A stretch of 64,000 nt of DNA from a virus: UHGV virus genome UHGV-1558314; one strand, given 5' to 3'. The notes beneath the pieces are model-generated. The model did not search any database, was not told the origin of the DNA, and worked only from the letters and a program-made list of their open reading frames with translations. Made by a program: the position numbers and the translations under genes. Positions 27,868 to 56,598 of this stretch are shown one piece after another. The first letter of the stretch is position 1, and every line of letters starts with the position of its first letter.

Positions 27868-27874
27868 TTAATTG

Positions 27875-28485: not shown

Positions 28486-28986
28486 TCATTCGATGTTACC
28501 AGATAGTATCTGAATGGCATCCAATGCATTTTCGCGTATTAAGCCAAACTTACCTATAACTTGAACAAAATGTTTGTCATTTTCAAATGCTGAGTCATCA
28601 AGAATGACATATTGTTTGATGTCATATTTCTCAACAAGTGCAGGCACTGCATCAAATCTGTCATAAAAGCCCTCAGCGTAAATTGATGGCAACAAATAGC
28701 CTGGCATATTACGCTTAAGCCACATTGTCTTGCAGTCATCAAGAATAGCCCAACTACTTATCAAGCATATTGCACCAACATCTGACATCTGACAAATGTA
28801 TCTCAACCAGCCAACACATCGTTCATCAAACAATTGGCCAAACTCATCTCTTGACTGCACATCCATGTTTGCACGATGCTTTGACATGTGCAACATATTG
28901 AGATTATCTTGGCTATTCAGAACACCATCAATGTCCAAGAATATCACTTTGTCAGGCCAAATCACTTTGCTTGTTGTGTTGTTCAT
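28486..28986 (-). CDS. HAD-superfamily phosphatase (possible 5'(3')-deoxyribonucleotidase-like)
   Basis: HAD motif I FLDIDGVL, Ser/Thr motif ISSW, acidic motif ILDD. Confidence 0.5.
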   Translation of the reverse strand: MNNTTSKVIWPDKVIFLDIDGVLNSQDNLNMLHMSKHRANMDVQSRDEFGQLFDERCVGWLRYICQMSDVGAICLISSWAILDDCKTMWLKRNMPGYLLPSIYAEGFYDRFDAVPALVEKYDIKQYVILDDSAFENDKHFVQVIGKFGLIRENALDAIQILSGNIE

Positions 28987-39619: not shown

Positions 39620-42600
39620 TCAATTGCATGCTGAATGTCCGCAGTTGGTGCATCGAACACAGCCGTCAAACTTGACCATGTCACCACCGCATTCAGGGCA
39701 CTTTGCATACATTTTTGAGCCATCTTGAATATGCAGTTTCAATGCACGACCAATTGCTTTGCAGAATGTTCCGACAGATGCAAAGCTTTTTGCAGTTTGG
39801 TCGACAATTTCGCCAAGGTCAATACCATTGCGAAGCATCGTTGAGTATAGTCGAGTAATTGTTTGTTGCTCATCTGAACCAAGACGTTCTGATATATTGT
39901 CATAGTGCTGCAAGAATGACAAATTGTCACCAAGCTTGTAGTGCTTCTTATCAGTCTTTGTGATTGTCGTTTGTTCAATGCCTTGCAACTTGTCGAATTC
40001 ATCTTTGTCAAGTTCAAATGCAAAGATTTCATAAGGTCGACCGTCATCACAGCCTACAAGAATACACCACTTGCGCTTATACACTGACACGCAATACACT
40101 GCAGCAGGCAATACTGGTTTTCGTTTTGAGCGATGACCAGATTGCAAGATGTGCGACTTGTCTTTTGACTGCTTGTCATCTTTTACGAGAACACCTGCAC
40201 GTGAGCCGTCTCGATAAATTGTGCAGCCCTTGCAGCCAGATTTCCATGCAGTCATATAAATTTCACGAACGAGTTCTTTTGTTGCAGAGTTTGGAATGTT
40301 GACCGTTACAGAAATTGACGAGTCAATGTATTTTTGCAATGCACCTTGCAGTTTCACCTTGCCAATCCAGTCAACATCTTCAGTAGTTGCCTTGTAGTAT
40401 GGTGATTGAACAAGCAACTCATCAATGACTGCTTGTGGAGCATTTGATAGCCAAGCTTTGATACGAGACATTTCTGCTTCTGACCATTCAATGCCAGTAT
40501 CTTTGACAAGAGTAAATTTGCCATCGCCAAGCTGCAATCGTTTACAAATCCACTGCATCAATGGGTAGTGAACTACAGCATATTCAATGAACTTGTCACC
40601 AGTAGTCTCATCAATGAAGTTGATGTCAGCTTCATTATCAACTGCAGTAGGCTTGCGACGACGTTTATGCAGCGGCATAAAGACAGGTTCAATGCCAGAC
40701 GTTGTCTGAGTCATCAAAGCTGTAGTGCCTGTTGGCGCAATTGTGGTCGTGTTAATGTTTCGACGGCCAAATTGCTGATAAGTTTTGATATGCTCATCAT
40801 CAATCGGTTCAGATAGCATACGCTGTACGAACTTTGACTGCACATCTGTGTCATAGTCGAATATTGCAAATGCGCCACGAATCTTTGCTAAGTCAATCGA
40901 TGCTTCATAAGTAGCCTTTACAAGCCATTGTTGCATAGTGACTGCGAAGTCAATTGACTCTTGTGAACCATAGCGCAAGCCAAGCATTGCCATTGCATCG
41001 CCAAGTGCAAGGAAGCCCATGCCATATCTACGAGTATTTGTCAATTTGTCATAGACTTTGTGCCACAAGTCAAGTTCAGTCTTTTTGATGTCAAAGTCTT
41101 CTTTGTCTGACTGTACCTTTGCAATGATTCGTTGCACTGCTTCAATTTCAAGCTGTACAAGGTCATCCATGATGACTGCACAATCATACGTGTCTTTATA
41201 GAATGTCTCAAAGTCAAATGACGCATCAGCAGTCCAAGGATTAAGCACGTATGCAGTCAAATTGCGATGTGACAAAATGCAGCTTGCATATGCTGCAAGA
41301 GGTTGTTCACCACAATTTAATGTATTGACTACTTGCTTGTCATTGACTGCAATAAAGAAATTGTGGAAGTCTTCTACTGTACCATTGTACACATCTGCTT
41401 TGTTCATGTGACGTGTTGCAACGACTTTGACAATTGTATCACCAGTAGTGTCAATGTCTGCATATTTGCTGCAGCCACCTAATGCTGCACAAGCTTCACA
41501 GCAATATGACTGTTCACGATTGTCATAAGAGATTTCGAATTCTTTACCACAGCACTCGCATTGTTTGATAACTGTATTTCGTTCTGTTTTTACAAGCTCA
41601 TCAGTCTTCAATGCAATTGATAGCTTATCTGCGCTTGGCATATCAATTGCCCACAACGTGTCATTTGTCGCAAGGTCAATTGCATACTTGAAATCACCAT
41701 TAGCAAGTCTGAACTCATGATTTGCTGTGCAATTGATGACATGACCATCATCAAGCACAATCTGAATGATTTGTGCATTGTGTGCAGTCAATCTTGGTCG
41801 ACGCATTGTACGCACAACAAGCTTGCCATTAGCGTCAAGACAATACACTGGAATGTCTTCGCCGTTATCAGCAAGCTCTTTGAATGTCTTCAAGCCTGAG
41901 CCATCAGCAACAAGCACTTTTGTGTCACCAGTGAAGCATGGATTTGTTGAGCGCTCTTCATACATTTTGCCGTATGCTTTCGAGTTCGACTCTTCCATAA
42001 TGCGGTCCCAAAAGAATACACCAGGTTCTGCAGATGCCCATACATTATCAACAATTTTGTCAAACAATGCTTTTGCATCTGATGTCTTATGCAGCTCTTG
42101 ACCATTAGAGCCACGCCAAACATGCTCAAACTGTTGTTCTGCAAGCACTGCACGCATAAATGCATCAGTAAGCTTGATGGAAATGTTTGCGCATGTGATT
42201 TTCGTCAAGTCCTTTTTTGCATCAATGAACTTATCTGCATCAGGATGCTCAATTGACAATGACAACATCAATGCGCCACGCCTGCCATTTTGTGCAACTT
42301 CTTTTGTCGATGTTGAAAAACGTTCCATAAATGACACTACACCAGACGTCGTAACAGCACTGTTATGCACTTCTACGCCTTCTGGACGAATATGTGACAA
42401 ATCATGGCCGACACCACCACGACGTTTCATCAACTGAACTTGTTCTTCATCTATTTTGAAGATGCCGCCATATGAGTCTGCATCATTGCCTATTACATAG
42501 CAATTTGACATTGATGTGTAACCGCCAAGACCAATACCAGCCATTGGAGAACCACCAAGTACAAATCGCTTAAATGGCTCAAGCAAATATGCAAGTCGCT

Positions 42601-42841
42601 CTTTTGACAATACACGTTTGCCTGTCTGTTCTTCAAATTGTGATTCTATACGGTCAAATTCATTGACCCAGCGTTCATGCATATCAGACAATGAGTGTTC
42701 ATACAGATTGTCTTTGTCATGATGCAAGTATTTTGACATGCATATGTCAGCAGCCATTGAGTCGCCTGTAAATTCATGTGTCAGTGTAGTGTGCACTTCA
42801 GCATATTCAGGCGACCCAATTTGAATAGGACGTTTTGTCAT
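39620..42841 (-). CDS. ribonucleotide reductase catalytic subunit (probably class II NrdJ-like), intein-containing
   Basis: Active-site NPCGE is split (…ERSTNP | intein | CGEQPL…); C-terminal zinc ribbon CPECGG...CVRCTNCGH; start taken at MTKRP (ATG at 42841). Confidence 0.8.
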   Translation of the reverse strand: MTKRPIQIGSPEYAEVHTTLTHEFTGDSMAADICMSKYLHHDKDNLYEHSLSDMHERWVNEFDRIESQFEEQTGKRVLSKERLAYLLEPFKRFVLGGSPMAGIGLGGYTSMSNCYVIGNDADSYGGIFKIDEEQVQLMKRRGGVGHDLSHIRPEGVEVHNSAVTTSGVVSFMERFSTSTKEVAQNGRRGALMLSLSIEHPDADKFIDAKKDLTKITCANISIKLTDAFMRAVLAEQQFEHVWRGSNGQELHKTSDAKALFDKIVDNVWASAEPGVFFWDRIMEESNSKAYGKMYEERSTNPCFTGDTKVLVADGSGLKTFKELADNGEDIPVYCLDANGKLVVRTMRRPRLTAHNAQIIQIVLDDGHVINCTANHEFRLANGDFKYAIDLATNDTLWAIDMPSADKLSIALKTDELVKTERNTVIKQCECCGKEFEISYDNREQSYCCEACAALGGCSKYADIDTTGDTIVKVVATRHMNKADVYNGTVEDFHNFFIAVNDKQVVNTLNCGEQPLAAYASCILSHRNLTAYVLNPWTADASFDFETFYKDTYDCAVIMDDLVQLEIEAVQRIIAKVQSDKEDFDIKKTELDLWHKVYDKLTNTRRYGMGFLALGDAMAMLGLRYGSQESIDFAVTMQQWLVKATYEASIDLAKIRGAFAIFDYDTDVQSKFVQRMLSEPIDDEHIKTYQQFGRRNINTTTIAPTGTTALMTQTTSGIEPVFMPLHKRRRKPTAVDNEADINFIDETTGDKFIEYAVVHYPLMQWICKRLQLGDGKFTLVKDTGIEWSEAEMSRIKAWLSNAPQAVIDELLVQSPYYKATTEDVDWIGKVKLQGALQKYIDSSISVTVNIPNSATKELVREIYMTAWKSGCKGCTIYRDGSRAGVLVKDDKQSKDKSHILQSGHRSKRKPVLPAAVYCVSVYKRKWCILVGCDDGRPYEIFAFELDKDEFDKLQGIEQTTITKTDKKHYKLGDNLSFLQHYDNISERLGSDEQQTITRLYSTMLRNGIDLGEIVDQTAKSFASVGTFCKAIGRALKLHIQDGSKMYAKCPECGGDMVKFDGCVRCTNCGHSACN
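41315..41938 (-). mobile_element. mini-intein (208 aa) inside the ribonucleotide reductase gene
   Basis: Begins CFTGDTKVLV (block A), contains NCTANHEF (block B) and VYNGTVEDFHNFF (block G-like), ends ...VVNTLN followed by extein Cys; precise excision restores NPCGE. No LAGLIDADG or HNH domain; carries a Cys-rich insert CECCGKEF...CCEACAALGGC. Confidence 0.75.
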
Positions 42842-42908
42842 TGTAACAGTGCATTTAAGTGTTTTAACAGTTTTATGTATAAATTGTACAACAATGGGCA
42901 AAATTTTG

Positions 42909-43780: not shown

Positions 43781-45322
43781 TTATCTACTTACAGAATCTC
43801 GCATTGAAATCATAACTTGCTCTTGAATTGACATAGGTATGATGTTGAAGTCTGACACTTCAGCAACGTCATCAACATCAAGTGCTCTTAATGTGTCTGT
43901 GTTACAGCAAGTCACTATGATTGACTTGCGAACATACTCATCAGCAACATTCCACAACAGCTGACAAATTGCTCGATTGTCAAGACAAATTTCATTGACT
44001 GTGCGGACAAGGCTGTACCATGCAGTCACATTATTGCGCTTCAGAGTTTCAAGCATATATCGTGCAAGCCCAAAACCTGCTACATATGACCCAGTCTGCT
44101 TATTGAATGACTCAATTGCGTATGCATCAAACAATGCTTCTGTCATCAAGGGCATTGCAGCGGTCATTCGGTAGTATCGATAGTCAACACATACAATCAA
44201 CCAGTTAACATATGAATTGACTGCGTATGCATGCGCTTTGAACCCAAGGTCATTCAAGATTTTGCAGATGGCATTGTAAGTCGATTCATCAGCATTGCCA
44301 AAGTTTGCAAGCAGCTTAACTTTAAGAATGTCTTCACCAATTGCATTTCTTGTAGCAGTGAATGATGGTATGCATGCAAAGCTTCTTTTGCAGATGTCTG
44401 TGATAAGTTGCTGTGCATCATTCACAAGCTGTCTTGCAGCCTCAGCACGCTTTTCAGACTGTGCTTGATATTTTGGCCGCAACTGTGATGAGCCAGTTGC
44501 AGCACCATATCGCATAGCAGCTTGCCAGTCCTTGAGATTATTTTGCAATTCACGAACATAGTCTGCAGCGACCATTGCAGATGGAGTTCTTTGCTGTTCG
44601 ATGAGTTTGTTGATGTTTGCAAGCACATCTGATGCAAACATATCTTTTGGTTTGACTTTCGCAATTTCAGCAAGCACTGCAGGTACACGAGCAATGCCAC
44701 GAGGCTCATTTGAAACTACTACTGCATAATCTACAAGTGCCTCACATACAAGCTGTTCATCGACAAAGTACTCAGGATTCTGCACAGCGTCTTCAACAAC
44801 TGCAATCAATGTTGCTATACGATTGCCGTCAGGCTTATTGCCAAACAGCTCAATGTACAACATATCTGCTTGTTGGTCTGTCATTGAACCTGCAATGTCA
44901 ATTGACTTTGCCAGCTTATTAAGCAGTTCAGCTTGCTTACTCGACAATCTGACTTTGTATGATGACTCTACAGCTTCTTTGACTGCTTTGAGTTTTCTAT
45001 CAATGTCAAGACTACTTTCATTGACATTCATACCAACAATGCCAGCAGCGTCAGTGTTAAATTGCTCAACAGTTTCTGCTGCAGTTATTGGCGATGACAC
45101 AATAGATTGTTTTGCATTTGCTGCAAGCTGATTGAGTCGAGTGACTGCTTCAGAATCTTGCGCAACTGCAAGATATCTTACGCACAGCTCATCAATCTGT
45201 GAAAGATAACTTTGGGTCATGTTTATCGAAAAATTGTTGTTTCTTGACGAATAGCTGTTGGATGCAATTTGCAGAAACACTTCGACATTTCTAAGTTCCG
45301 ATGATGACAACAATGTTTCCAT
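43781..45322 (-). CDS. hypothetical protein
   Basis: 513-aa ORF. Confidence 0.5.
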   Translation of the reverse strand: METLLSSSELRNVEVFLQIASNSYSSRNNNFSINMTQSYLSQIDELCVRYLAVAQDSEAVTRLNQLAANAKQSIVSSPITAAETVEQFNTDAAGIVGMNVNESSLDIDRKLKAVKEAVESSYKVRLSSKQAELLNKLAKSIDIAGSMTDQQADMLYIELFGNKPDGNRIATLIAVVEDAVQNPEYFVDEQLVCEALVDYAVVVSNEPRGIARVPAVLAEIAKVKPKDMFASDVLANINKLIEQQRTPSAMVAADYVRELQNNLKDWQAAMRYGAATGSSQLRPKYQAQSEKRAEAARQLVNDAQQLITDICKRSFACIPSFTATRNAIGEDILKVKLLANFGNADESTYNAICKILNDLGFKAHAYAVNSYVNWLIVCVDYRYYRMTAAMPLMTEALFDAYAIESFNKQTGSYVAGFGLARYMLETLKRNNVTAWYSLVRTVNEICLDNRAICQLLWNVADEYVRKSIIVTCCNTDTLRALDVDDVAEVSDFNIIPMSIQEQVMISMRDSVSR

Positions 45323-46175: not shown

Positions 46176-46293
46176 ATATTGTATGTGTTTGTATATGTAT
46201 TTTAACAGGCATTAGCAAACAATACAAAAATGCAAAATGAAAGTGGCTCAGATGTATATCTGAGCCACTTTCATTTGTCATATGAGTTGTCTA

Positions 46294-47949
46294 TTATGCA
46301 AGCAATGTTTGCAGCATGTAGCAGCCTTTTGCATATGCGACAATTGCTTTTGCAGGATTGTTCTTGATGTATGCAGGCAACTTGAGCCAAATCAGTGCTA
46401 CAAGAACTTTCTGTCGCAGCGTTAAATCAAGTTCATCAATGTTGTAGCCAATGACTTTTGCTCTGACATCGCCATCAACATAATCGAATTGCTGATATGC
46501 TGACTGATTGAATGCATCATAGCCAGACAAGCCATATGCAAACTTTGCAATGTCATAATCGATGTCACCAGTCATCTTGACGTCACCAAAGTAGCCTCTT
46601 GGGTCAATGAACATGCATTTTGATGAATCTGCACTGAACATTGTATTTGACGTATTCGGGTCACCATGAATGAATGACCAATTTTCGCATGCATAGTCAA
46701 TTGAATCTTCTTGTGACAAGAAGAATCTTAACTTGCTCATCAGTTCATCGAATGGCATCAATGCAATACCATTGAATGATTTGATGCCTGCTACAAGTGA
46801 CTTGACTTCAGCATATCTTGCAATAGTAGTCTCAATGTACTCTTTGCGCATTGCGTCAATCATTTGCTGTCTGCTAACTGGCCAAATCTCGTCATTGTCA
46901 AGATTACTTGCATGCAATTCATTGATTGACTGTTTGAATGTTGTCATGCAGCCACGAGCAATTGCAGCATATCTACGCTCAATATCAACTTTGTTGAGGA
47001 ACTGATGTACAGTCACTCCGTTAATTTTCGACATTTTGATGAAGTCTTCACCAGTTTCAAATATCGATGGAATGACTGTCGATTCTGCATTCATAGCATG
47101 ACGATACCATTCTTGTTCTTTCTGAATGAGTGCCAAACCACGAGCATTTGTAGCAGATTTCGTAACAATATCGCCATCAATGCTAATGCTATTGAAATAC
47201 CGCACTTCATTATCACGTGCAGCCTTGACTGCTTCACTGACAAATGCTCCGCGTTCGCCATATGAATGACAGCCAGCAATTTCATATCTGTCTACAAATG
47301 TAACGTTGGTCATTAAATCAGCAAAATCAGCATTGTTATCATTATGCTGCATATCAATGACATTGTTATGAAACGCTGCAGGTACATAATATGCGCCAAC
47401 AATGCCACTATGATATGTAGACTCATACAAATGGTCGAGCACATATGCTTCTGCATCTGCATAAGACCCTACTTTGTAGAATGCATCAGTAGGAATGAGA
47501 TGCAGTCTGCAATCAATGTCATTTGACGTGCAACAAGTTATGCAGCCATTTTTGAATTCTGCAAACGGCAATTCAATATCGCCAAGCCACACATCAGACC
47601 AATGATAGAATACATTGCAATCACCAATGTTGTTAGCAACAAACATTGCTACATCTGCGCATGCTTTTGCTGAGCCATCAGCTTTGTCATGCACAATAGT
47701 TGATAACTTGATATCTGGTGCAAATGCTGCAGCATGTTCATGAATCATTGCTACATGAGTGTCATTTGCACATGCAACAATGACTTCATCAAACTGTCGA
47801 GCATAGGATGTCAAAATCTTTGCAAGCACTGTTTGTTTGCCTGCATTTACAAGAGTTTTAGGGATGTAATTGTTGCCGGTCATTGTTGACATGCGAGTGC
47901 CCAACCCACATGCAATGATTGCTAACACATTTGGATATTGATGAGACAT
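46294..47949 (-). CDS. bifunctional sugar-phosphate nucleotidyltransferase / APH-choline-kinase-fold kinase
   Basis: N-terminal AIIACGLGTRM...IPKTL (G-x-G-T-R nucleotidyltransferase signature); C-terminal FIHGDPNTSN and FIDPRGY (kinase H-x-D...N and D-x-x-G-type motifs). Confidence 0.6.
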   Translation of the reverse strand: MSHQYPNVLAIIACGLGTRMSTMTGNNYIPKTLVNAGKQTVLAKILTSYARQFDEVIVACANDTHVAMIHEHAAAFAPDIKLSTIVHDKADGSAKACADVAMFVANNIGDCNVFYHWSDVWLGDIELPFAEFKNGCITCCTSNDIDCRLHLIPTDAFYKVGSYADAEAYVLDHLYESTYHSGIVGAYYVPAAFHNNVIDMQHNDNNADFADLMTNVTFVDRYEIAGCHSYGERGAFVSEAVKAARDNEVRYFNSISIDGDIVTKSATNARGLALIQKEQEWYRHAMNAESTVIPSIFETGEDFIKMSKINGVTVHQFLNKVDIERRYAAIARGCMTTFKQSINELHASNLDNDEIWPVSRQQMIDAMRKEYIETTIARYAEVKSLVAGIKSFNGIALMPFDELMSKLRFFLSQEDSIDYACENWSFIHGDPNTSNTMFSADSSKCMFIDPRGYFGDVKMTGDIDYDIAKFAYGLSGYDAFNQSAYQQFDYVDGDVRAKVIGYNIDELDLTLRQKVLVALIWLKLPAYIKNNPAKAIVAYAKGCYMLQTLLA

Positions 47950-47990
47950 TGTGTAGTATTGTTTATATGAATATTGTACAATATGCATTG

Positions 47991-48248
47991 CTATTTTGCA
48001 AGATGACAATGCTTACGCCATACTGCAATTTCAACATCTGTAGCAAAATCAAAGTGCAAGCCATGCAATTGTTTCATGTCATATTGACGTCTTGCAATAT
48101 ACTTATTGCCAACTCGCTCAACAACAGAACCAATTTCTACTACATTTTTAGAATGTCGTGGCTCATGTAATGGCACTCTGAATATGTATCTGCCATCTAA
48201 TGTTGACATTATGTCACCATTGTCAATTATGCCTGTTTGCCTGCTCAT
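47991..48248 (-). CDS. hypothetical protein
   Basis: 85-aa ORF. Confidence 0.3.
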   Translation of the reverse strand: MSRQTGIIDNGDIMSTLDGRYIFRVPLHEPRHSKNVVEIGSVVERVGNKYIARRQYDMKQLHGLHFDFATDVEIAVWRKHCHLAK

Positions 48249-48263
48249 TGTTAAAGCATCAAG

Positions 48264-48938
48264 TTATTTTTGAATGTCTACAAGTTCTGCTGCAATTCTA
48301 TCATATGCTAGCATGTGCTTAATTGCGTCATCAAGCAGCTTGTTAAATTCAAGATACTGCTGCAGCACTTTGTCATTCTGCAATGACTGCTCAAGCGCAG
48401 CATAATCACCTGCAAACGGGCGATTCATTGACAGGCCAAAGTTCTTCGCACATTTAGCATAAAATGCATTGTACTCTGCAGCATCAATTGGTGTCGCGTC
48501 ATGAGCTTTAAGCGCACTTTCACTGAGCAACGGGATGGTTTGCTTTCTGCAACGAGTAAACTCGTCTTTGTCAACATACAACACAGAACAACGAACGACA
48601 TTGTCTTCTGCATTCATACCACCTGTCAACAAATCCATTTCCCAATCGAAGCAAATGTTGTAGATGTACAGCATCACAGTTCGATGCTTGTTATCAACAA
48701 ACTTCCAATATCGAGACTTTTTGCAGATAGCTTTGATATGCTGCAAGTCATGCATAAACTTATCATGCGATATCGCATCAAAGCGAGGCAATGATTTGTT
48801 GTCAATGAATGTGTTTGCTGCATCTGCACAACGTTTGAATTCTGCTTGATGCATATTCAGCTCTTCTATGCGCTTTGCTACAAGCGCTTCATATTCTGCT
48901 TTTGCAAGAGCAAGTCTTGCTTCATACAAACTTTGCAT
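48264..48938 (-). CDS. hypothetical protein
   Basis: 224-aa ORF. Confidence 0.45.
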   Translation of the reverse strand: MQSLYEARLALAKAEYEALVAKRIEELNMHQAEFKRCADAANTFIDNKSLPRFDAISHDKFMHDLQHIKAICKKSRYWKFVDNKHRTVMLYIYNICFDWEMDLLTGGMNAEDNVVRCSVLYVDKDEFTRCRKQTIPLLSESALKAHDATPIDAAEYNAFYAKCAKNFGLSMNRPFAGDYAALEQSLQNDKVLQQYLEFNKLLDDAIKHMLAYDRIAAELVDIQK

Positions 48939-48963
48939 ATTTGTGTATGTTTATGAGTTTCTG

Positions 48964-49420
48964 TTAAAATTTGCCATCTGCTACTTGAAAACATTGATAG
49001 CCAAGCTCTCGCCATTTAGCGACCATGGAATCGCGGTCTTCAAGCACAAATGCAATTTGTTGCAGTTCGTCTTCAGACAATGTTTCTACAAGCAATTCAG
49101 GTTTGACAAGCGTATCATGACGTTTATCACCATCTTTTCGCATAAGAATTTGCGGATTGACGATTCTGCCATCTGTATGCTGTGCAAGCCAAACTTCTGT
49201 CATCTGTCTGCAGCTTTCACGACGACCTGTGCAGAATATGATTCTGTAGCCAACTTGCTGCAAATCGCAAAGCAAGTCAAGCACAGTCATAATAGGCTTG
49301 TCTTCATAACAGTGTGCATAAAATGCATCCCCAATCTTTGTTTGATTGTTGAAGATATTTTAGACGGTCGCCAACTTTTGAAATTGTTCCGTCAATGTCG
49401 CATATGATGATATTTGCCAT
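48964..49420 (-). pseudogene. HAD-superfamily phosphatase interrupted by a +1 frameshift
   Basis: ATG at 49420 opens MANIIICDIDGTISKVGDRLKYLQQSNKDW (HAD motif I) and stops after 38 codons; the rest (DAFYAHCYEDKPI...IIFCTGRRE...) continues in the +1 frame; removing one base from the cccc run at 49329..49332 fuses both parts. Confidence 0.5.
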
Positions 49421-49444
49421 GATATGTATGCTTATGAAAGGAAG

Positions 49445-49470
49445 AGCTCAATTGAGCTCTTCCTGATAGT
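49445..49470 (-). terminator. perfect palindromic hairpin
   Basis: aggaagagctcaa / ttgagctcttcct downstream of the 49495..50367 gene. Confidence 0.5.
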
Positions 49471-49494
49471 CAACTTGATAAACCTCTACGAAAA

Positions 49495-50367
49495 TCAAGC
49501 CTGACTACTTTTGTTGATTACGAGATACTTGTATCGTTCTTTGATTGTGATGTTCTTTGATTTTGCTGCCTCGAGTTCTTTACGTTCCTTGGAGGAATAG
49601 TTGAACTTGATGTAGTCGGAGAACAATTCGGGCTTATCTGCTACTTCATTGTTCTTGACTTCTTTTACAAGAGTTTGCTGAAACTCATTGATTGTAGTGA
49701 AACCAAGGAATGACTGGAACTTGTTAAGCGGAAACAACTTATCTGTGTTGTCCTCGAATGTCGGGAATTCGTCGGAATACGTAATTTCGATTTGGTCTAC
49801 GAAATATCTAAGTTTTTCCCAAGGTTCCTTGCCAATGAGGAGAATGTTCTGATGGTCAAGTTTTTCCTCGAACATTTCCAGGAGGCATTCGTATGATTTT
49901 ACGAGACGAACTCCAGGATATGTAATTGATGCAATTGAACGAGGTTTGTGAGTTGTCTTGACTTCTTTATTGTACGTTTCCTCATCAATGCAATAGATGT
50001 ATCGCTTGACCTTGTCGTATTCTTTCGGAAGATAGTTGTTGTCAAGGAATTGCTTGTCAACTACAATGAAACTGAAAGGATAGAGTTCATTGAATCGTTG
50101 ACGAAGCTGTTCTGTTGCAAGGAAGAAATGCGAGCCATCTTTTGCTGCAAATTCCATATTTGAATTGCATCCTGCATATGCAATGTATCTGTTTCGCTTC
50201 CATTTAAGGAATCGACTTACCAGATTCTTTTCGAAGATATCCTTGTATTTGAAGTTAGTGTCCCAGTACTCCTTAACAATTCCATCTTGCATTTTTCTTG
50301 ACAATTTTGAATTGTCTACCGGCCTATCAGTAAAAACTGAAGGTTTGTTTGCATTGTATAATCCCAT
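49495..50367 (-). CDS. hypothetical protein with atypical nucleotide composition
   Basis: Start taken at MGLYNANK (ATG at 50367) just downstream of a promoter-like motif; sequence visibly richer in gg/tcgg/ggaa than neighbouring genes. Confidence 0.5.
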   Translation of the reverse strand: MGLYNANKPSVFTDRPVDNSKLSRKMQDGIVKEYWDTNFKYKDIFEKNLVSRFLKWKRNRYIAYAGCNSNMEFAAKDGSHFFLATEQLRQRFNELYPFSFIVVDKQFLDNNYLPKEYDKVKRYIYCIDEETYNKEVKTTHKPRSIASITYPGVRLVKSYECLLEMFEEKLDHQNILLIGKEPWEKLRYFVDQIEITYSDEFPTFEDNTDKLFPLNKFQSFLGFTTINEFQQTLVKEVKNNEVADKPELFSDYIKFNYSSKERKELEAAKSKNITIKERYKYLVINKSSQA

Positions 50368-50407
50368 TGTAGTAGAGGTTTTTGTTAAATTTATTATATA
50401 TGTATAT

Positions 50408-50434
50408 ATTACAACGACAGTGCAAAATTTGCAC
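50408..50434 (-). promoter_or_regulatory. recurrent bipartite promoter-like motif
   Basis: attacaacgacagtgcaaaatttgcac (contains the palindrome cagtgcaaaatttgcactg). Confidence 0.5.
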
Positions 50435-50461
50435 TGTCGTAGCATAAAAGTTTACACATTT

Positions 50462-50812
50462 TTACAAATATGAGTACAGTTTGTTCATAACTCGTTCAAT
50501 TGCAAATTCAACACCATATTGCAACAACTGTTCAGTGCTAAATGTCTTTGCTGCATGTGCATGCGCAACAATATGCTTTGTCTGTGCATATAATATCCAA
50601 GTATCAGTTGGCCTGTCATAAGTTACTGTCAGTCTACATGTTTGCAACACAAACTCTTGACTAAAGTATTCTCTTCGCCAAAACTCTGGTTCTGCAATAT
50701 GCAAATCAAGCCAAGCAAACTCAAACAGAATTTGTTTAAGTTGACGTTGATGCTTACGTTCAGCACGATATGAGTTGCTGAATAGCCATTTAATGATGTT
50801 CATCATTTGCAA
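50462..50812 (-). CDS. hypothetical protein
   Basis: 116-aa ORF. Confidence 0.4.
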   Translation of the reverse strand: MQMMNIIKWLFSNSYRAERKHQRQLKQILFEFAWLDLHIAEPEFWRREYFSQEFVLQTCRLTVTYDRPTDTWILYAQTKHIVAHAHAAKTFSTEQLLQYGVEFAIERVMNKLYSYL

Positions 50813-51519
50813 TCATTATGCTGAGTATGAATTGCGTTGCCCTGTGAATCCAAGCGAATCGCAGTTTGCATTGCGACTTCAGATTGTGTTTGTTCTGCTT
50901 GACGAGCTCTTTGAAGTCCACCTCCAGGGTGACATGTGTAAAATCTATCAAAGTCAGTGCCAAGCTGTTCAGCAACAGACAACATGATGTTATCACCAAT
51001 GAGCTGAGATGCTAGCAGAGAATTCGTCGGAATTCGTGGATTGCGTGAGTCCTCGTCAATTGCTGGCAATGATACAAGCAAGTCTGCCCAAGCATTCATA
51101 TCAGTGACCTTGCCACCAGCAAAGTTAATGCCGATGATTTGGCAATTCGGTGCAAGCAATTCACGATGTTCACGAAGATATGTCATTGCAGTTGCAAGTT
51201 CAGATGTGTTGCCTGTTTTGCTGAATGCTACAATAACATCATTGTTTCGAATCATACCAAAGTCACCATGCATTGCATGTACTGCATCAAAGAACGCAGC
51301 ATCAAGTGAAATTGAATAGCATGTTGCAGCAAGTTTTTCACAGCAATGCACATTTTTGCCAATGCCAGTGAACAATACTTTGCCATCAGACTTCAATGCA
51401 TTTGCAATAATGTCTGCTGCAATGCCAAGAACATCATATTGCGCATCTGAAATGTTGTTGTGCCATGCTACAAGCGACTCGACTGATGCAGCAATGCCTT
51501 TGTGTACAAGTGTTTTCAT
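50803..51519 (-). CDS. SIS-domain sugar-phosphate isomerase (arabinose-5-phosphate isomerase-like)
   Basis: DGKVLFTGIGKNVHCCEKLAAT and VIVAFSKTGNTSEL match the KdsD/KpsF-type SIS signature; no CBS domains. Confidence 0.7.
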   Translation of the reverse strand: MKTLVHKGIAASVESLVAWHNNISDAQYDVLGIAADIIANALKSDGKVLFTGIGKNVHCCEKLAATCYSISLDAAFFDAVHAMHGDFGMIRNNDVIVAFSKTGNTSELATAMTYLREHRELLAPNCQIIGINFAGGKVTDMNAWADLLVSLPAIDEDSRNPRIPTNSLLASQLIGDNIMLSVAEQLGTDFDRFYTCHPGGGLQRARQAEQTQSEVAMQTAIRLDSQGNAIHTQHNDCK

Positions 51520-51537
51520 TTTGTGATGTTTGAAGGT

Positions 51538-52221
51538 TCAAAGAAACTTGAGTTTTGACAGCATTTCAGTGTCTTGTTCTGTGTTGATGCCAAGCTCTTG
51601 CATGACATCAAGCAACGCAGACCATAATTGCTCATATGATTGCCCACCCCCATTCATGACAACTGCATCAACGAACAACTCGTCGATGTGCTGCTCACTT
51701 GAATGATTGATGTTTTGCATGACATCATCATTAACAATCTTTATGAGTTTGAAGCCTCTTGAGCGCAATGCGGTCGCTTCATTTGGATATCGACAGTCAC
51801 CAACACAAATGAGAGCTTCATTATGACAGTTGTCAAGTCGATACAACAAACTATTGACAAAGAAGTCTTCACCATACAGTTTCTTGAGCACATCTGAAAC
51901 ATCAAGATGCACATTGCGAATCGATGAACCTGCAAACTCTACAAAGTGTTTTTGTTTGAATGCATTGTTATGCAAGTCTTGCAAATTGTAGCCCAGTGTA
52001 CTTGCAATAAATGCTTTCAGTGGCTTTGCAAAGCACTCATATGCAAGATTGCAGCCACATGACCAGTATGGATTTGCTTCAATTTGCTGCAAAGTTGATG
52101 TGTAAATGCTATCAATTACAGTGAACTTGCATTTAGTCATGACTCGAATCATCGCCCAAGCCAAATCTTTGCCTACGCCTGCATGACCAACAAGCGCAAT
52201 TTTTGTTATGTCATCATTCAT
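51538..52221 (-). CDS. deoxynucleoside monophosphate kinase (T4 gene 1-like)
   Basis: P-loop ALVGHAGVGKD (G-x-x-G-K-D variant typical of phage dNMP kinases). Confidence 0.55.
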   Translation of the reverse strand: MNDDITKIALVGHAGVGKDLAWAMIRVMTKCKFTVIDSIYTSTLQQIEANPYWSCGCNLAYECFAKPLKAFIASTLGYNLQDLHNNAFKQKHFVEFAGSSIRNVHLDVSDVLKKLYGEDFFVNSLLYRLDNCHNEALICVGDCRYPNEATALRSRGFKLIKIVNDDVMQNINHSSEQHIDELFVDAVVMNGGGQSYEQLWSALLDVMQELGINTEQDTEMLSKLKFL

Positions 52222-52696
52222 TGCACCACTGTTTAAGAGTCACAAAATTGTTGAAGTCTGCATAAAAGTCATCGCCACCGTTAAGCATTGCGACATTCTC
52301 AAGTTCATTGAGAATGATTTGCTTATCAATGACTATTGCAAGAGCGTCAAAGTCTTCTTTTGATTGCAAATCAAGTAGCACAGGATGACCTTTGAGTCTT
52401 GTAGTTAATGTTGTTGGCAGTCTATGCACAGACTTCTTTTTCTTTGACTGCGTAGGATGTTTTGAGCGCTTTCTTGTAGCAGTCAGCTGAATATCATAGT
52501 CAATTTCAAGCAAACCTGCATCTTGCATTACAAAGTTGAGATTGACATACACAGGATGCTTTTGCTGAATGTCTATGAATTCTTGTAATTTGTCGTTTAT
52601 CATTTGAAATGCATTTGTATATGATAATTGTACCACGTATGCATCAACTTTGCACACAAAACAAGACCAACTCAATTGAGCTGGTCTTGCGGTCAT
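52214..52696 (-). CDS. hypothetical protein
   Basis: 160-aa ORF. Confidence 0.4.
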   Translation of the reverse strand: MTARPAQLSWSCFVCKVDAYVVQLSYTNAFQMINDKLQEFIDIQQKHPVYVNLNFVMQDAGLLEIDYDIQLTATRKRSKHPTQSKKKKSVHRLPTTLTTRLKGHPVLLDLQSKEDFDALAIVIDKQIILNELENVAMLNGGDDFYADFNNFVTLKQWCNE

Positions 52697-55474: not shown

Positions 55475-56494
55475 CTATTGCTTATGCCAGCCATATGATG
55501 CCTGACCAGCATCATACACTTCTACAAAACCATGGTCGTACATAAAATCTTCATTACGAGTGCCCTTGCCCCCATTAGTACCAAGAATACGGTCTGCACC
55601 ATGCATAAGCAGCATATTATTTGTGATATGTTGCTTTGTCAGCATATTGAACCAATGTTTGCTATATGACAAGCCAAGACCATCAAAGCCCAGCTTTGTG
55701 TACACGCCACCATCAAACTTGCTCAAATCACAATACGACAACACAGATTCAGGGTCATATGTCTTGATAAAGTGCTTGAATATGCGTTCGGCGCCACCTA
55801 CGACTTTTGTTGCTGCACAAAGACGCAGTAGTTCATACTGATATCGCTTATTGTATCGTGGACGACCAAATGTCATAAGCTGATGTATGACATAGCCGCC
55901 AAGCAATTCAAGTGGATGGCCTTCAATCAACGCAAGATTGATAAAATTGCCTGAGCACTTGCCTTGCAAATGATGTTCAATCAAAAATTGATTTGCAGTA
56001 TACTTGTCAATTTCAACAACTTTAAGCTTGCGAGCATATACAATCTTTGATTTGTCTACGATTTGATGCTTGATGTGATTGATAACTTTCTTGGCGTCAT
56101 CCCAATCCCACACATGAATGCAATGAAAGCCTGCAGCTTTTGCAATGTCTGTTTTCTTTGCATGAATATCACAAGGCAAATGCGAATCTTTTGCAGCATG
56201 CATAAATAGATGCTCAAATGAATGCGTGCTATTATGTGAAAATGTGGGATTGATGTTGATGACGATGTTGTCATGTCTAAAATCGAAGACTTCATCACCA
56301 ATAACAAAGTTGCGCTCAAAATCTATACCGACATGTTTGAGTAATACTTGATGCCACACATCTTTATAGGCTGATTCAAGATTGCTTAGCTCATCACAGT
56401 TTGCAATATTTTTGTAACGTTGAATAGCAGCATCAAAGTCAAGATTGACTTCAGCGTAGTCTGCATTTTTATCGTAGTGAAATTTTGAGCTCAT
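55475..56494 (-). CDS. paralog family member C (conserved domain without the repeat array, extra inserted region)
   Basis: NINPTFSHNST, CIHVWDWDD, FVEVYDAGQ; FLIEHHLQG region between them; start taken at MSSKFHYD (ATG at 56494). Confidence 0.55.
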   Translation of the reverse strand: MSSKFHYDKNADYAEVNLDFDAAIQRYKNIANCDELSNLESAYKDVWHQVLLKHVGIDFERNFVIGDEVFDFRHDNIVININPTFSHNSTHSFEHLFMHAAKDSHLPCDIHAKKTDIAKAAGFHCIHVWDWDDAKKVINHIKHQIVDKSKIVYARKLKVVEIDKYTANQFLIEHHLQGKCSGNFINLALIEGHPLELLGGYVIHQLMTFGRPRYNKRYQYELLRLCAATKVVGGAERIFKHFIKTYDPESVLSYCDLSKFDGGVYTKLGFDGLGLSYSKHWFNMLTKQHITNNMLLMHGADRILGTNGGKGTRNEDFMYDHGFVEVYDAGQASYGWHKQ

Positions 56495-56598
56495 GTGTAT
56501 AATTTGTATGAGATTATTGTACAACATGCAAATGCATGTTGCATTTGATGCAAAGTACTGCGTACACAACATAAAGTACAAGTTTGCTTTTGACAGAC

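What the first reader, a model, noticed from the sequence alone, without database searches (positions are those of the whole stretch)
46294..52221. Sugar-nucleotide-type module next to dNMP kinase: candidate DNA hypermodification pathway
Within about 6 kb lie an SIS-domain isomerase with the arabinose-5-phosphate-isomerase GxGKS pattern (50803..51519), a fused nucleotidyltransferase plus APH/choline-kinase-fold kinase (46294..47949), a HAD phosphatase (48964..49420, frameshifted), an uncharacterised compositionally atypical gene (49495..50367), and a T4-gene-1-like dNMP kinase (51538..52221). Isomerase, kinase, nucleotidyltransferase and phosphatase together are what is needed to make an activated sugar from a pentose or heptose phosphate. 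In a phage that also carries DHFR and ribonucleotide reductase, the obvious hypothesis is glycosylation or other hypermodification of DNA bases, as in glucosyl- or arabinosyl-hydroxymethylcytosine phages. A role in modifying host surface polysaccharide is the alternative.
Basis: inference. Interest (0 to 1): 0.75.

Follow-up and report, generated by a model that had tools for sequence, protein, structure and literature searches.

The report
Phage arabinose-nucleotide module, likely DNA modification
An uncultured human-gut phage carries the sugar-activating enzymes that RB69-like phages use to coat their DNA cytosines with arabinose, here joined to a nucleotide kinase and a previously undescribed DHFR-shaped protein. 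The enzymes that would modify the base and attach the sugar were not found.

Summary
On the minus strand lie a T4-gp1-like dNMP kinase (51538-52221), a KdsD/GutQ-type arabinose-5-phosphate isomerase (50803-51519), a conserved unknown protein "p290" (49495-50367), a frameshifted HAD phosphatase (48964-49420) and a fused nucleotidyltransferase/kinase (46294-47949). A strong terminator closes the unit.

The isomerase and the fused enzyme are sequence homologues of RB69 gp55 and gp52:53. Those proteins belong to the published UDP-arabinofuranose pathway for arabinosyl-5-hydroxycytosine DNA.

- **HAD:** it is T4-Pnkp-type, not AfhF-type. One extra G breaks it here, and it is intact in a 95%-identical relative.
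- **p290:** it predicts as a DHFR fold, not a glycosyltransferase. It sits beside the fused enzyme in seven lineages, including cultured Chryseobacterium phages MA9V-1/2.
- **Missing parts:** no thymidylate-synthase homologue or glycosyltransferase was found in about 108 kb examined.

DNA hypermodification is the best explanation (about 0.55), but the acceptor side is unknown. I rate it a new variant of a known kind.

The parts
51538..52221 (-). T4-gp1-like dNMP kinase, first gene of the unit (P-loop GHAGVGKD)
   Evidence: PHROG 139 E 4.3e-25; Pfam DNMK 24.8 bits, below its 27.1-bit cut-off. Homologues lie next to p290 or the fused enzyme in L014, L034, L035 and L036.
50803..51519 (-). Single-SIS-domain arabinose-5-phosphate isomerase (KdsD/GutQ/KpsF type, no CBS domains)
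   Evidence: Pfam SIS 2.1e-8; PHROG 5670 2e-28; NCBIfam kpsF 3.3e-21; PDB 5uqi, 3etn and 2xhz; RB69 gp55 E 1e-16. GIGKN, HAMHGD and HPGG are conserved.
50462..50812 (-). 116-aa ORF of unknown function, specific to this phage species
   Evidence: No family hit. Its only homologue is in the 95% relative L004.
49495..50367 (-). p290: a rare, conserved protein family with a predicted DHFR-like fold, the constant partner of the fused enzyme
   Evidence: No Pfam, PHROG, NCBIfam or PDB-sequence hit. Only 16 representatives among 1.84 billion proteins. AlphaFold model pLDDT 74, core about 90. Foldseek returns only DHFRs: PDB E 1.6e-8 with TM 0.75, BFVD E 2.9e-10. Adjacent to the fused enzyme in L011, L014, L034-L036 and MA9V-2.
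49440..49463 (-). Perfect hairpin GGAAGAGCTC-AATT-GAGCTCTTCC between p290 and the HAD gene
   Evidence: Read directly from the sequence. The terminator scan did not flag it because the T tail is short.
48964..49420 (-). HAD phosphatase of the T4 Pnkp 3'-phosphatase type, interrupted by a +1 frameshift (GGGG at 49329-49332)
   Evidence: Pfam HAD_PNKP 1.9e-23. Three-frame translation shows the break. An intact 151-aa orthologue with GGG is in L004. PDB 4xrp, 5uj0 and 1ltq. The same GGGG appears in three assemblies.
48264..48938 (-). 224-aa ORF of unknown function, specific to this phage species
   Evidence: No family hit. Its only homologue is in L004.
47991..48248 (-). 85-aa ORF of unknown function, specific to this phage species
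   Evidence: No family hit. Its only homologue is in L004.
46294..47949 (-). AfhE-like bifunctional enzyme: N-terminal sugar-1-phosphate nucleotidyltransferase plus C-terminal APH/choline-kinase-fold kinase
   Evidence: Pfam NTP_transferase 4.7e-5; PHROG 4098 2.7e-76. RB69 gp52 E 1.5e-29 and gp53 E 5e-6. Homologues in 372 phage records. GxGTR, IPK, HGDxxxxN and IDPRG are invariant.
46235..46276 (-). Intrinsic-terminator-like hairpin (19-bp stem plus T run) 18 nt after the stop of the fused gene; end of the transcription unit
   Evidence: Terminator scan.

Best explanation
This is a phage-encoded unit that makes an activated pentose, most likely UDP-D-arabinofuranose, and is coupled to nucleotide metabolism. 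The likely end use is glycosylation of a non-canonical pyrimidine in the phage's own DNA.

**Proposed steps**
1. The isomerase converts ribulose-5-phosphate to arabinose-5-phosphate.
2. The kinase half of the fused enzyme phosphorylates C1.
3. A phosphatase removes the 5-phosphate. This could be the Pnkp-type HAD where it is intact, or otherwise a host or unidentified enzyme.
4. The nucleotidyltransferase half joins arabinose-1-phosphate to UTP.
5. The neighbouring gp1-like kinase phosphorylates the modified dNMP so that it can be polymerised.
6. A transferase then decorates the DNA.

**Shown here:** gene content, homology to RB69 gp55 and gp52:53, catalytic motifs, and conserved linkage of the kinase, p290 and the fused enzyme.

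**Inferred:** the identity of the sugar and nucleotide (identity to characterised proteins is only 28-31%), that DNA is the acceptor, and any role for p290. p290 could be the missing acceptor-side enzyme or a reductase that alters the pentose.
For: - **Homology:** the fused enzyme and the isomerase match the RB69 proteins. The published pathway covers RB69, DLP3 and HY126 (PMC13326640). Deleting the homologue TH1_060 in Shewanella phage Thanatos, which carries a pentose on cytosine, nearly abolishes propagation (PMC12838424).
- **Distribution:** homologues of the fused enzyme occur in 372 phage records, mostly RB69/JS98-like and Acinetobacter T4-likes. A pattern scan of 185,579 bacterial and archaeal genomes found none.
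- **Link to nucleotide metabolism:** the gp1-like kinase, p290 and the fused enzyme are adjacent in L034, L035, L036 and L014. A dCTP-deaminase/dUTPase-fold gene follows the fused gene in L036 and lies nearby in L014. A weak MazG-like ORF follows it in L011.
- **Pool-sanitising genes in the relative:** the 95%-identical relative has a DCD/dUTPase-like ORF and a MazG-motif ORF between the two halves of its DNA polymerase.
- **Cultured phages:** MA9V-1/2 share p290, the isomerase and the fused enzyme. They also carry a second thymidylate-synthase homologue beside a TMP-kinase-like gene. It keeps the catalytic Cys and has the cytosine-type N177D change.
- **Operon structure:** all genes are on one strand and end at a strong terminator.
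Against: - No thymidylate-synthase homologue, glycosyltransferase homologue or dCTPase lies in the 64-kb window.
- No thymidylate-synthase homologue was found in about 44 kb more of the 95% relative. A database search produced no candidate on a contig of this genome's size. About 67 kb of the genome could not be read.
- The HAD is Pnkp-type, not AfhF-type, and is frameshifted here.
- The isomerase is absent from the module in most gut relatives.
- p290 does not look like any known glycosyltransferase.
- There are no chemical data for this phage or for MA9V or PAU.
Confidence: 0.55

Rival explanations
1. The module makes an activated sugar for a non-DNA acceptor. Candidates are host lipopolysaccharide or capsule (arabinose-5-phosphate is also the Kdo precursor), or glycosylation of virion proteins.
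For: - The isomerase family is the Kdo/capsule enzyme KdsD/GutQ/KpsF, and PHROG files it under auxiliary metabolic genes.
- MA9V-2 has an annotated LpxD-like acyltransferase about 4 kb upstream of the module.
- An endolysin-like gene lies just downstream of the fused gene here, in L034/L035 and in PAU.
- No DNA glycosyltransferase was found.
Against: - Every characterised homologue of the fused enzyme serves DNA arabinosylation (PMC13326640).
- Linkage is to a dNMP kinase and dUTPase-fold genes, not to glycan-assembly genes.
- No homologue turned up in bacterial genomes, where polysaccharide loci would be expected to hold one. The pattern search has limited sensitivity.
Confidence: 0.15
2. The genes are neighbours without a shared pathway. 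The HAD would be a Pnkp-type nucleic-acid 3'-phosphatase for RNA or DNA repair, the kinase ordinary dNTP supply, the isomerase a stand-alone metabolic gene, and the fused enzyme and p290 something else.
For: - The HAD's closest solved relatives are Pnkp1 and the T4 polynucleotide-kinase phosphatase domain.
- The HAD and the isomerase are absent from the module in most relatives.
- A hairpin separates p290 from the HAD gene.
- A second RNA-repair-type HAD lies elsewhere in the window, at 28486-28986.
Against: - The isomerase and the fused enzyme co-occur in RB69-like phages, MA9V and PAU.
- The kinase, p290 and the fused enzyme stay together across lineages that share little else in the interval.
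- The genes share one strand and one terminator.
Confidence: 0.12
3. The product acts as a free nucleotide or small molecule. Examples are an arabino-nucleotide or an NDP-pentose derivative reduced by the DHFR-fold protein, used for host takeover or counter-defence rather than polymer decoration.
For: - The constant partners of the fused enzyme are a DHFR-fold protein and a dNMP kinase, both enzymes of small-molecule substrates.
- No polymer transferase was found.
Against: There is no precedent among homologues of the fused enzyme. This reading rests only on negative evidence.
Confidence: 0.1
4. The fused enzyme activates a non-sugar alcohol, in the manner of LicA/LicC (choline to CDP-choline) or aminoglycoside kinases.
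For: The published structural neighbours of the RB69 and DLP3 homologues include CTP:phosphocholine cytidylyltransferase, choline kinase and aminoglycoside phosphotransferase (PMC13326640 Table 1).
Against: - Sequence homology is to the arabinose-pathway enzymes, not to choline-kinase or APH families, which gave no Pfam hit at E 0.01.
- A pentose-phosphate isomerase lies in the same unit.
Confidence: 0.04

Closest known systems
UDP-arabinofuranose module of arabinosyl-5-hydroxycytosine phages (RB69 gp55, gp52:53, gp51; DLP3 gp81-83; HY126 AfhE/AfhF)
   Same: A KdsD-type single-SIS isomerase and a fused nucleotidyltransferase/APH-fold kinase that are sequence homologues (E 1e-16, 1.5e-29, 5e-6). 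They lie in one operon of a T4-like phage next to nucleotide-metabolism genes.
   Different: - Identity is only 28-31%, and the host phage is a very distant T4-like phage from the human gut (MCP Pfam E 4e-11).
- The phosphatase is Pnkp-type, not gp51/AfhF-type, and is frameshifted.
- The cluster has no thymidylate-synthase homologue, GT-B transferase, TMP-kinase-like gene or U32-like gene.
- It has a DHFR-fold protein that RB69-like phages lack.
Module in Bacteroidota jumbo phages MA9V-1/2 (Chryseobacterium) and PAU (Sphingobacterium host), uncharacterised
   Same: These hold the closest homologues of the fused enzyme (31% identity, E 3e-55) and of the isomerase. MA9V is the only GenBank phage with a p290 homologue. 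The MA9V-2 gene order is p290-like, x, DHFR, isomerase, x, fused enzyme. In PAU it is gp211, isomerase gp212, x, x, fused enzyme gp215, x, endolysin.
   Different: - The MA9V p290 homologue is longer (427 aa).
- There is no gp1-like kinase or HAD in that locus.
- These phages are about 215 kb.
- Nothing is known about their DNA chemistry.
T4 glucosyl-hydroxymethylcytosine system (gp42, gp56, gp1, alpha/beta-glucosyltransferases)
   Same: The logic of a modified dNMP made at the nucleotide level, phosphorylated by a gp1-type dNMP kinase and glycosylated after replication. A gp1-like kinase is present here.
   Different: T4 uses host UDP-glucose and needs no sugar-activation genes. Homologues of gp42, gp56 and the glucosyltransferases were not found in the window.
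Bifunctional salvage enzymes such as Bacteroides L-fucokinase/GDP-fucose pyrophosphorylase (from general knowledge, not tested)
   Same: The same design principle: an anomeric sugar kinase fused to a sugar-1-phosphate nucleotidyltransferase.
   Different: Different kinase fold family and domain order. No sequence relationship was examined here.
Dihydrofolate reductase / RibD C-terminal reductase superfamily (for p290)
   Same: Predicted fold: Foldseek probability 1.00 and TM up to 0.75 to DfrA1 and other DHFRs, plus RibD 2hxv.
   Different: - No sequence-family match. hhalign against a DHFR alignment gave 1.9% probability.
- The GGG NADPH loop reads IGKEP and the GRxT loop reads VDKQF.
- It has about 130 extra residues.
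- A canonical DHFR is encoded elsewhere, at 3928-4431.

Membership tests
Afh-type UDP-arabinofuranose synthesis module (RB69/DLP3/HY126) | KdsD/GutQ-type arabinose-5-phosphate isomerase | tested here: met
   NCBIfam kpsF 3.3e-21, GutQ 8.5e-20, KdsD 3.3e-19; PHROG 5670 2e-28; RB69 gp55 E 1e-16; PDB 5uqi, 3etn, 2xhz; conserved GxGK, HxxHGD and HPGG.
Afh-type UDP-arabinofuranose synthesis module (RB69/DLP3/HY126) | Single polypeptide with an N-terminal sugar-1-P nucleotidyltransferase and a C-terminal APH-fold kinase, homologous to AfhE / RB69 gp53+gp52 | tested here: met
   Pfam NTP_transferase on residues 11-122; PHROG 4098 over residues 10-550; phmmer against gp52 1.5e-29 and gp53 5e-6; catalytic motifs invariant.
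Afh-type UDP-arabinofuranose synthesis module (RB69/DLP3/HY126) | AfhF / RB69 gp51-type HAD phosphatase (arabinose-1,5-bisphosphate 5-phosphatase) | tested here: not met
   RB69 gp51 finds nothing in the window. The HAD present is HAD_PNKP (1.9e-23), closest to Pnkp1 and T4 Pnk. It is frameshifted here and absent from the module in relatives. An analogous role is not excluded.
Afh-type UDP-arabinofuranose synthesis module (RB69/DLP3/HY126) | [quoted passage not shown] | not testable with these tools
   Needs an enzyme assay. Inference rests on 28-31% identity to homologues.
Complete arabinosyl-5-hydroxycytosine DNA hypermodification system | Thymidylate-synthase homologue making 5-hydroxy-dCMP (Asn at E. 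coli ThyA position 169) | tested here: inconclusive
   There is no Thymidylat_synt hit among the ORFs of 100 aa or more that were scanned by Pfam (five ORFs of 102-120 aa were left unscanned). phmmer with RB69 gp48 and the MA9V ORF88 TS homologue over all six-frame ORFs of 40 aa or more found none. There is none in about 44 kb more of the 95% relative, and no hit on a contig of this genome's size. About 67 kb of the genome is unread. The MA9V homologue keeps D169 and has N177D.
Complete arabinosyl-5-hydroxycytosine DNA hypermodification system | GT-B DNA arabinosyltransferase(s) | tested here: inconclusive
   RB69 gp3, gp46 and gp47 find nothing. No glycosyltransferase Pfam or PHROG hit. Four unknown ORFs of 300-380 aa gave no PDB sequence hit. 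Their folds were not predicted.
Complete arabinosyl-5-hydroxycytosine DNA hypermodification system | dCTPase that removes canonical dCTP | tested here: inconclusive
   None in the window. RB69 gp28 finds nothing. The 95% relative has a DCD/dUTPase-like ORF (E 1e-10 to the L014 protein that carries Pfam DCD/dUTPase). Next to it is an ORF with the MazG LGLxGExGE motif and weak PDB hits at E 0.014.
Complete arabinosyl-5-hydroxycytosine DNA hypermodification system | Dedicated kinase for the modified dNMP | tested here: met
   The gp1-like dNMP kinase is the first gene of the unit. Its linkage is conserved. The RB69 gp45-type TMP-kinase-like gene was not found.
Complete arabinosyl-5-hydroxycytosine DNA hypermodification system | Pentosylated cytosine in virion DNA | not testable with these tools
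   Needs LC-MS or a restriction panel. GATC depletion was checked as a proxy and is uninformative, because RB69 shows it too.
Dihydrofolate reductase family (p290) | DHFR fold | tested here: met
   AlphaFold model pLDDT 74, core about 90. Foldseek against PDB gave 355 hits at E<=0.001, and the 50 best listed were DHFRs apart from one RibD. Foldseek against BFVD gave DHFRs. This is a prediction, not a solved structure.
Dihydrofolate reductase family (p290) | DHFR/RibD_C sequence signature and cofactor loops (GGG pyrophosphate loop, GRxT loop, pterin-binding acid) | tested here: not met
   No Pfam DHFR_1 or RibD_C hit. hhalign probability 1.9%. By inspection the loops read IGKEP and VDKQF. p290 should not be filed as a DHFR.
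T4 Pnkp-type HAD 3'-phosphatase (the HAD gene) | DxDGT nucleophile motif plus a HAD_PNKP domain in one intact ORF | tested here: not met
   The motif and domain are present, but a +1 G splits them between two frames in the window. They are intact in L004.
LicA/LicC-type choline activation | Sequence membership in the choline-kinase and phosphocholine-cytidylyltransferase families | tested here: not met
   No Choline_kinase or APH Pfam hit at E 0.01 for the window protein. Similarity is reported only at fold level for RB69/DLP3 homologues.

The most novel reading that the evidence does not exclude
In this clade of Bacteroidota phages, including abundant human-gut phages, the conserved trio makes a pentosylated DNA base by a route that does not use the thymidylate-synthase-type or GT-B enzymes of RB69. 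The trio is the gp1-like kinase, the DHFR-fold p290 and the AfhE-like enzyme. In this reading, p290 has been recruited as the missing acceptor-side enzyme. It could be a transferase that holds the NDP-pentose in the former NADPH site and a pyrimidine in the former pterin site. It could be a new C5-modifying enzyme. Or it could be a reductase that turns arabinose into a different sugar. The result would be a new hypermodified base and a new enzyme class.
Probability: 0.15. Interest if true: 0.85.

Novelty: new variant of a known kind. Interest (0 to 1): 0.55.

Why it matters
Arabinosylated cytosine blocks restriction enzymes and blunts CRISPR cleavage. So far it is documented only in Straboviridae of Proteobacteria (PMC13326640, PMC12838424).

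This locus suggests the same sugar-activation chemistry works in a deep-branching T4-like lineage of human-gut Bacteroidota phages. That would affect:
- how such phages evade defence systems;
- how their DNA behaves in sequencing and cloning;
- how they are counted in viromes.

The locus also singles out one small, uncharacterised protein family (p290, DHFR-like fold) as the constant partner of the sugar-activating enzyme. Cultured phages MA9V-1/2 and PAU carry the same genes, so the question can be tested directly at the bench.

Tried and rejected
- **DNA search:** near-identity search of the region against GenBank phages found nothing.
- **Finding the thymidylate-synthase homologue:**
  - phmmer and HMM searches of the window and of all fetched loci found none.
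  - The search for homologous proteins with the MA9V homologue gave no hit on a 175,395- or 174,628-bp contig.
  - The 178-kb candidate P0059 proved to be an unrelated phage.
  - P0031 is a MA9V-like phage.
  - Walking the IMG/VR relative with all eight scans reached only contig positions 26.6-134.3 kb. It found tail, baseplate, portal and DNA-polymerase genes but no TS homologue.
- **Walking limits:** walking by exact-protein look-up is limited to window proteins. The 249-aa (PE)n protein was not on record. The 327-aa left-end protein is absent from the relative.
- **p290 as a glycosyltransferase:** rejected on fold.
- **p290 as a true DHFR:** rejected on sequence.
- **p290 as a recent foreign insertion:** rejected, because its position is syntenic across lineages and its GC is near average.
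- **PAU gp211 as a p290 homologue:** not supported by sequence (hhalign 0.8%). It is only suggested by the 272-aa BFVD hit H9NC88, which has the same length.
- **PAU gp216 / MA9V ORF84 as a KdsC-type phosphatase:** no Pfam support.
- **GATC/CTAG depletion as an argument against cytosine modification:** rejected, because RB69 shows the same depletion.
- **Other unknown ORFs:** PDB sequence searches of four unknown ORFs of 300-380 aa found nothing.
- **Supplement:** the supplement of PMC13326640 is not held.

Full report
**1. What is in the sequence**

The region is a run of minus-strand genes. In transcription order they are:

| Coordinates | Product |
|---|---|
| 51538-52221 | dNMP kinase |
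| 50803-51519 | SIS isomerase |
| 50462-50812 | 116-aa unknown |
| 49495-50367 | p290 |
| 48964-49420 | HAD, frameshifted |
| 48264-48938 | 224-aa unknown |
| 47991-48248 | 85-aa unknown |
| 46294-47949 | fused nucleotidyltransferase/kinase |

A hairpin with a 19-bp stem and a T run lies at 46276-46235, 18 nt after the last stop codon.

- **Kinase.** It matches PHROG 139 (E 4e-25). It scores just under the Pfam DNMK threshold.
- **Isomerase.**
  - It fits the KpsF/GutQ/KdsD arabinose-5-phosphate isomerases far better than other SIS enzymes: NCBIfam E 3e-21 against 0.003 for sedoheptulose isomerase.
  - It also matches PHROG 5670 at E 2e-28 and PDB 5uqi, 3etn and 2xhz.
  - It keeps GxGK, HxxHGD and HPGG.
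- **Fused enzyme.** Its first ~120 residues match Pfam NTP_transferase, and PHROG 4098 covers its whole length (E 2.7e-76). GxGTR, IPK, HGDxxxxN and IDPRG are invariant across four lineages.
- **HAD.**
  - The nucleophile motif MANIIICDIDGT is in one frame and the rest of a HAD_PNKP domain (E 1.9e-23) is in another.
  - The break is a run of four G at 49329-49332. A 95%-identical IMG/VR contig has three G and an intact 151-aa ORF.
  - Three assemblies reproduce the four-G version (ENA megahit, a ZEEV15 scaffold and Logan ERR1136818). They probably come from one sample.
  - The frameshift therefore appears to be a real mutation in that phage population, not an assembler error.

**2. Whose genome it is**

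The window encodes these proteins:
- a weakly T4-like major capsid protein (Pfam Gp23, E 4e-11);
- a T4-type large terminase;
- a clamp loader;
- topoisomerase II subunits;
- an NAD-dependent ligase;
- DHFR;
- an intein-containing class II-like ribonucleotide reductase;
- an endolysin-like protein.

It also carries six tRNA genes.

- It has no near match among 50,697 GenBank phages.
- It is identical over 20.7 kb to human-gut metagenome contigs, the longest 175,395 bp.
- It is 95% identical to IMGVR_UViG_3300045988_152288, 174,628 bp.
- The nearest cultured phages for the module genes are Chryseobacterium phages MA9V-1/2 and phage PAU. PAU's host is really a Sphingobacterium (PMC3738902).

A Bacteroidota host is therefore likely. 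That is an inference.

**3. Relation to the known system**

PMC13326640 shows that RB69 and Acinetobacter phage DLP3 replace cytosine with mono- to tri-arabosylated 5-hydroxycytosine.
- A thymidylate-synthase homologue makes 5-hydroxy-dCMP. Its signature is Asn at E. coli ThyA position 169.
- GT-B transferases add arabinose on the DNA.
- UDP-arabinofuranose comes from three phage proteins:
  - an arabinose-5-phosphate isomerase (RB69 gp55);
  - a bifunctional kinase/pyrophosphorylase (gp52:53; HY126 AfhE, characterised biochemically according to that paper);
  - a HAD phosphatase (gp51; AfhF).

Local phmmer searches with the RB69 proteins gave hits for three:

| RB69 protein | E-value in window |
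|---|---|
| gp52 | 1.5e-29 |
| gp53 | 5e-6 |
| gp55 | 1e-16 |

RB69 gp51, gp48, gp45, gp46, gp47, gp3, gp50 and gp28 found nothing.

The fused enzyme has homologues in 372 phage records and the isomerase in 266. Most are RB69/JS98-like, Acinetobacter, Klebsiella, Serratia and similar T4-likes. In Shewanella phage Thanatos, which carries a pentose on cytosine, deleting the homologue TH1_060 nearly abolishes propagation (PMC12838424).

So the sugar-activating half of the known system is present by homology. The base-modifying and transferring half is not detectable in the window.

**4. The HAD is a different kind of phosphatase**

The intact orthologue's closest solved relatives are the phosphatase domains of Capnocytophaga Pnkp1 (E 6e-15) and T4 polynucleotide kinase (E 2.5e-8). 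These enzymes act on nucleic-acid 3'-phosphates. Three further points count against a core role:
- it is broken in this strain;
- no HAD occupies the module in the related gut phages or in MA9V;
- a hairpin separates it from p290.

It may substitute for AfhF, but that is not shown. It could equally be an unrelated repair enzyme.

**5. The conserved partner p290**

- **Sequence searches.** The 290-aa product has no Pfam, PHROG, NCBIfam or PDB-sequence match.
- **Rarity.** An exhaustive profile search of 1.84 billion representatives found only 16 relatives. Word-indexed searches found 9-11. Among GenBank phages only MA9V-1/2 have it.
- **Gene order around p290 in each lineage**:

| Lineage | Order |
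|---|---|
| L011 | p290, fused enzyme |
| L034, L035 | dNMP kinase, p290, one ORF, fused enzyme |
| L036 | p290, dNMP kinase, fused enzyme, DCD/dUTPase-fold gene |
| L014 | p290, three ORFs, dNMP kinase, fused enzyme |
| MA9V-2 | p290-like, one ORF, DHFR, isomerase, one ORF, fused enzyme |

- **What varies.** The small ORFs between these genes differ in every lineage. The isomerase appears only in the window species, MA9V and PAU. That is plausible because Gram-negative hosts already make arabinose-5-phosphate for Kdo (established knowledge).
- **Structure.**
  - A first AlphaFold model was weak (pLDDT 59).
  - Adding two distant members raised it to pLDDT 74, with the core near 90.
  - Both models retrieve dihydrofolate reductases almost exclusively, plus RibD:
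    - PDB: E 1.6e-8, probability 1.00, target-normalised TM 0.75.
    - BFVD: E 2.9e-10.
- **Sequence comparison with DHFR.**
  - Profile comparison with a small DHFR alignment is not significant (probability 1.9%).
  - It does align LLIGKEPWEKLRYFVDQIEITYSD...LFP with the DHFR segment IIGGxxxY...LTxID...GDxxFP.
  - The glycine-rich NADPH loop and the GRxT loop are not conserved.
  - A canonical DHFR is encoded elsewhere in the window.

I conclude that p290 has a DHFR-like fold (predicted), is not a DHFR by sequence, and is not a recognisable glycosyltransferase. Its activity is unknown. Its mild compositional oddity reflects a Lys/Asn/Phe/Tyr-rich protein, not recent import.

**6. Search for the missing acceptor-side genes**

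- **In the window.**
  - Pfam was run on most window ORFs of at least 100 aa. It found no thymidylate synthase, glycosyltransferase, MazG or DCD.
  - Five ORFs of 102-120 aa were not scanned by Pfam.
  - phmmer with the RB69 and MA9V proteins covered all six-frame ORFs of at least 40 aa and also found no TS homologue.
- **To the right of the window.** The ENA contig holds portal, protease-fusion and sheath genes.
- **Walking the relative.** Together with the window they covered contig positions 26.6-134.3 kb.
  - There are large tail-fibre-like ORFs to the left of the terminase.
  - Structural genes follow, then a family-B DNA polymerase split into two ORFs.
  - Between the polymerase halves lie a DCD/dUTPase-like ORF (E 1e-10 to the L014 protein that carries Pfam DCD/dUTPase) and an ORF with the MazG LGLxGExGE motif (weak PDB hits, E 0.014).
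  - A DUF488 homologue lies nearby, and baseplate-like genes follow.
  - No TS homologue appeared.
- **Database search.** A search with the MA9V TS homologue returned none on a contig of this genome's length.
- **Coverage.** About 67 kb remains unread, so absence is not established.
- **In MA9V-1.**
  - A second TS homologue (447 aa) sits beside a TMP-kinase-like gene, as in RB69 and RL38J1.
  - Aligned with E. coli ThyA and RB69 gp48, it keeps Cys146 and Asp169 and has Asn177 changed to Asp.
  - That is a cytosine-type enzyme without the 5-hydroxycytosine signature, which suggests a hydroxymethyl- or methyl-dCMP route in that phage.

**7. Mechanism and confidence**

The best-supported reading is a phage unit that makes an NDP-pentose, probably UDP-arabinofuranose, for decorating a modified pyrimidine in phage DNA. 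The adjacent gp1-like kinase would handle the modified dNMP.

Support:
- homology to characterised enzymes;
- conserved linkage to nucleotide-metabolism genes;
- an apparently phage-only distribution (no relative in 185,579 prokaryotic genomes by a pattern search of limited sensitivity);
- the parallel with MA9V.

Against:
- the base-modifying enzyme and the transferase are unidentified;
- the HAD is non-orthologous and broken;
- sequence identity is low;
- there is no chemistry.

I put this at about 0.55. The rivals are:

| Rival | Confidence |
|---|---|
| Non-DNA glycan acceptor | 0.15 |
| Unrelated neighbouring genes | 0.12 |
| Soluble nucleotide product | 0.10 |
| Non-sugar substrate | 0.04 |

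**8. Novelty**

The sugar-activation chemistry and its use in DNA arabinosylation are known (2018-2026 literature). The new elements are:
- its presence in a deep-branching, uncultured gut phage lineage;
- a different phosphatase family;
- the absence of the usual neighbours;
- a constant, uncharacterised DHFR-fold partner.

I classify it as a new variant of a known kind, with moderate interest (0.55). Interest would rise sharply if p290 proves to be the acceptor-side enzyme.

Noticed in passing
window 1-64000 (GATC only at 24322 and 27347; CTAG at 4188, 48308, 51012): Extreme depletion of some palindromes against a maximal-order Markov expectation. GATC has 2 sites against 178 expected, CTAG 3 against 64, TTTAAA 0 against 11, and CATG 370 against 628. 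Related gut-phage loci show the same. RB69, which is fully hypermodified, also has GATC at 21 against 146 in 40 kb, so this says nothing about modification.
   Followed up: partly
L044:3267-8358 (IMGVR_UViG_3300045988_152288, about 117-122 kb): The family-B DNA polymerase of the 95% relative is split into two ORFs. One (502 aa) carries the DIETE and DxxSLYPS motifs. The other (439 aa) carries KxxxNSxYG and YxDTDS. About 2.3 kb between them holds four ORFs, including a DCD/dUTPase-like and a MazG-motif protein.
   Followed up: partly
window 26760-27946: Cluster of six tRNA genes (Gly-TCC, Thr-TGT, Glu-TTC, Leu-CAA, Pro-TGG, Gln-TTG) on the minus strand. A second HAD of the RNA-repair 'Swiss Army Knife' type lies next to it at 28486-28986.
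   Followed up: no
window 39620-42901: The ribonucleotide reductase large subunit (1093 aa) contains an intein (Pfam Intein_splicing, residues 338-517) and a C-terminal TSCPD segment.
   Followed up: no
window 55475-56581: A homing/HNH endonuclease-like gene (PHROG 3339, E 7e-42) is inserted between the major capsid gene region and the DUF5856 gene.
   Followed up: no
window 48-1031 (+); L007: A 327-aa DUF6242-like protein at the left end also occurs, identical, on a 2.6-kb contig beside an IS1595 transposase. It is missing from the 95% relative. It is a variable, probably host-derived gene.
   Followed up: partly
window 61807-62556: A membrane-like 249-aa protein has a long (Pro-Glu)n / (Lys-Pro-Glu)n C-terminal repeat. 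Its exact product is not on record in other assemblies, which suggests variable repeat length or an assembly problem.
   Followed up: no
window 57967-59682: The major capsid gene is much more GC-rich (0.515, GC3 0.547) than the window average (0.405) and than all other genes examined.
   Followed up: no
L031:4445-11247 (ENA ERZ27247683 k141_4014911, 178 kb): An unrelated large phage with a DnaE-type polymerase has a thymidylate-synthase homologue in a run of nucleotide- and sugar-metabolism genes. The run includes dUTPase_2, UDP-glucose dehydrogenase, an NAD-dependent epimerase/dehydratase, a UDG-family protein, a methyltransferase and dCMP deaminase. This is another candidate base-hypermodification cluster.
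   Followed up: no
L011:8989-9423, L034:8428-8976, L044:2820-3251: A DUF488-N3a protein sits just upstream of the kinase/p290 genes in related gut phages, and elsewhere in the 95% relative. In the window, the unrelated 160-aa ORF at 52214-52696 occupies that slot.
   Followed up: partly
window 43781-45322; L011:13711-15741: The 513-aa protein two genes downstream of the module is homologous (E 3e-29) to a 676-aa protein in L011. That L011 protein has weak precomputed Acb1 / 2',5'-RNA-ligase (2H phosphoesterase) hits, so it may be an anti-CBASS-type enzyme. The window protein gave no Pfam hit.
   Followed up: no
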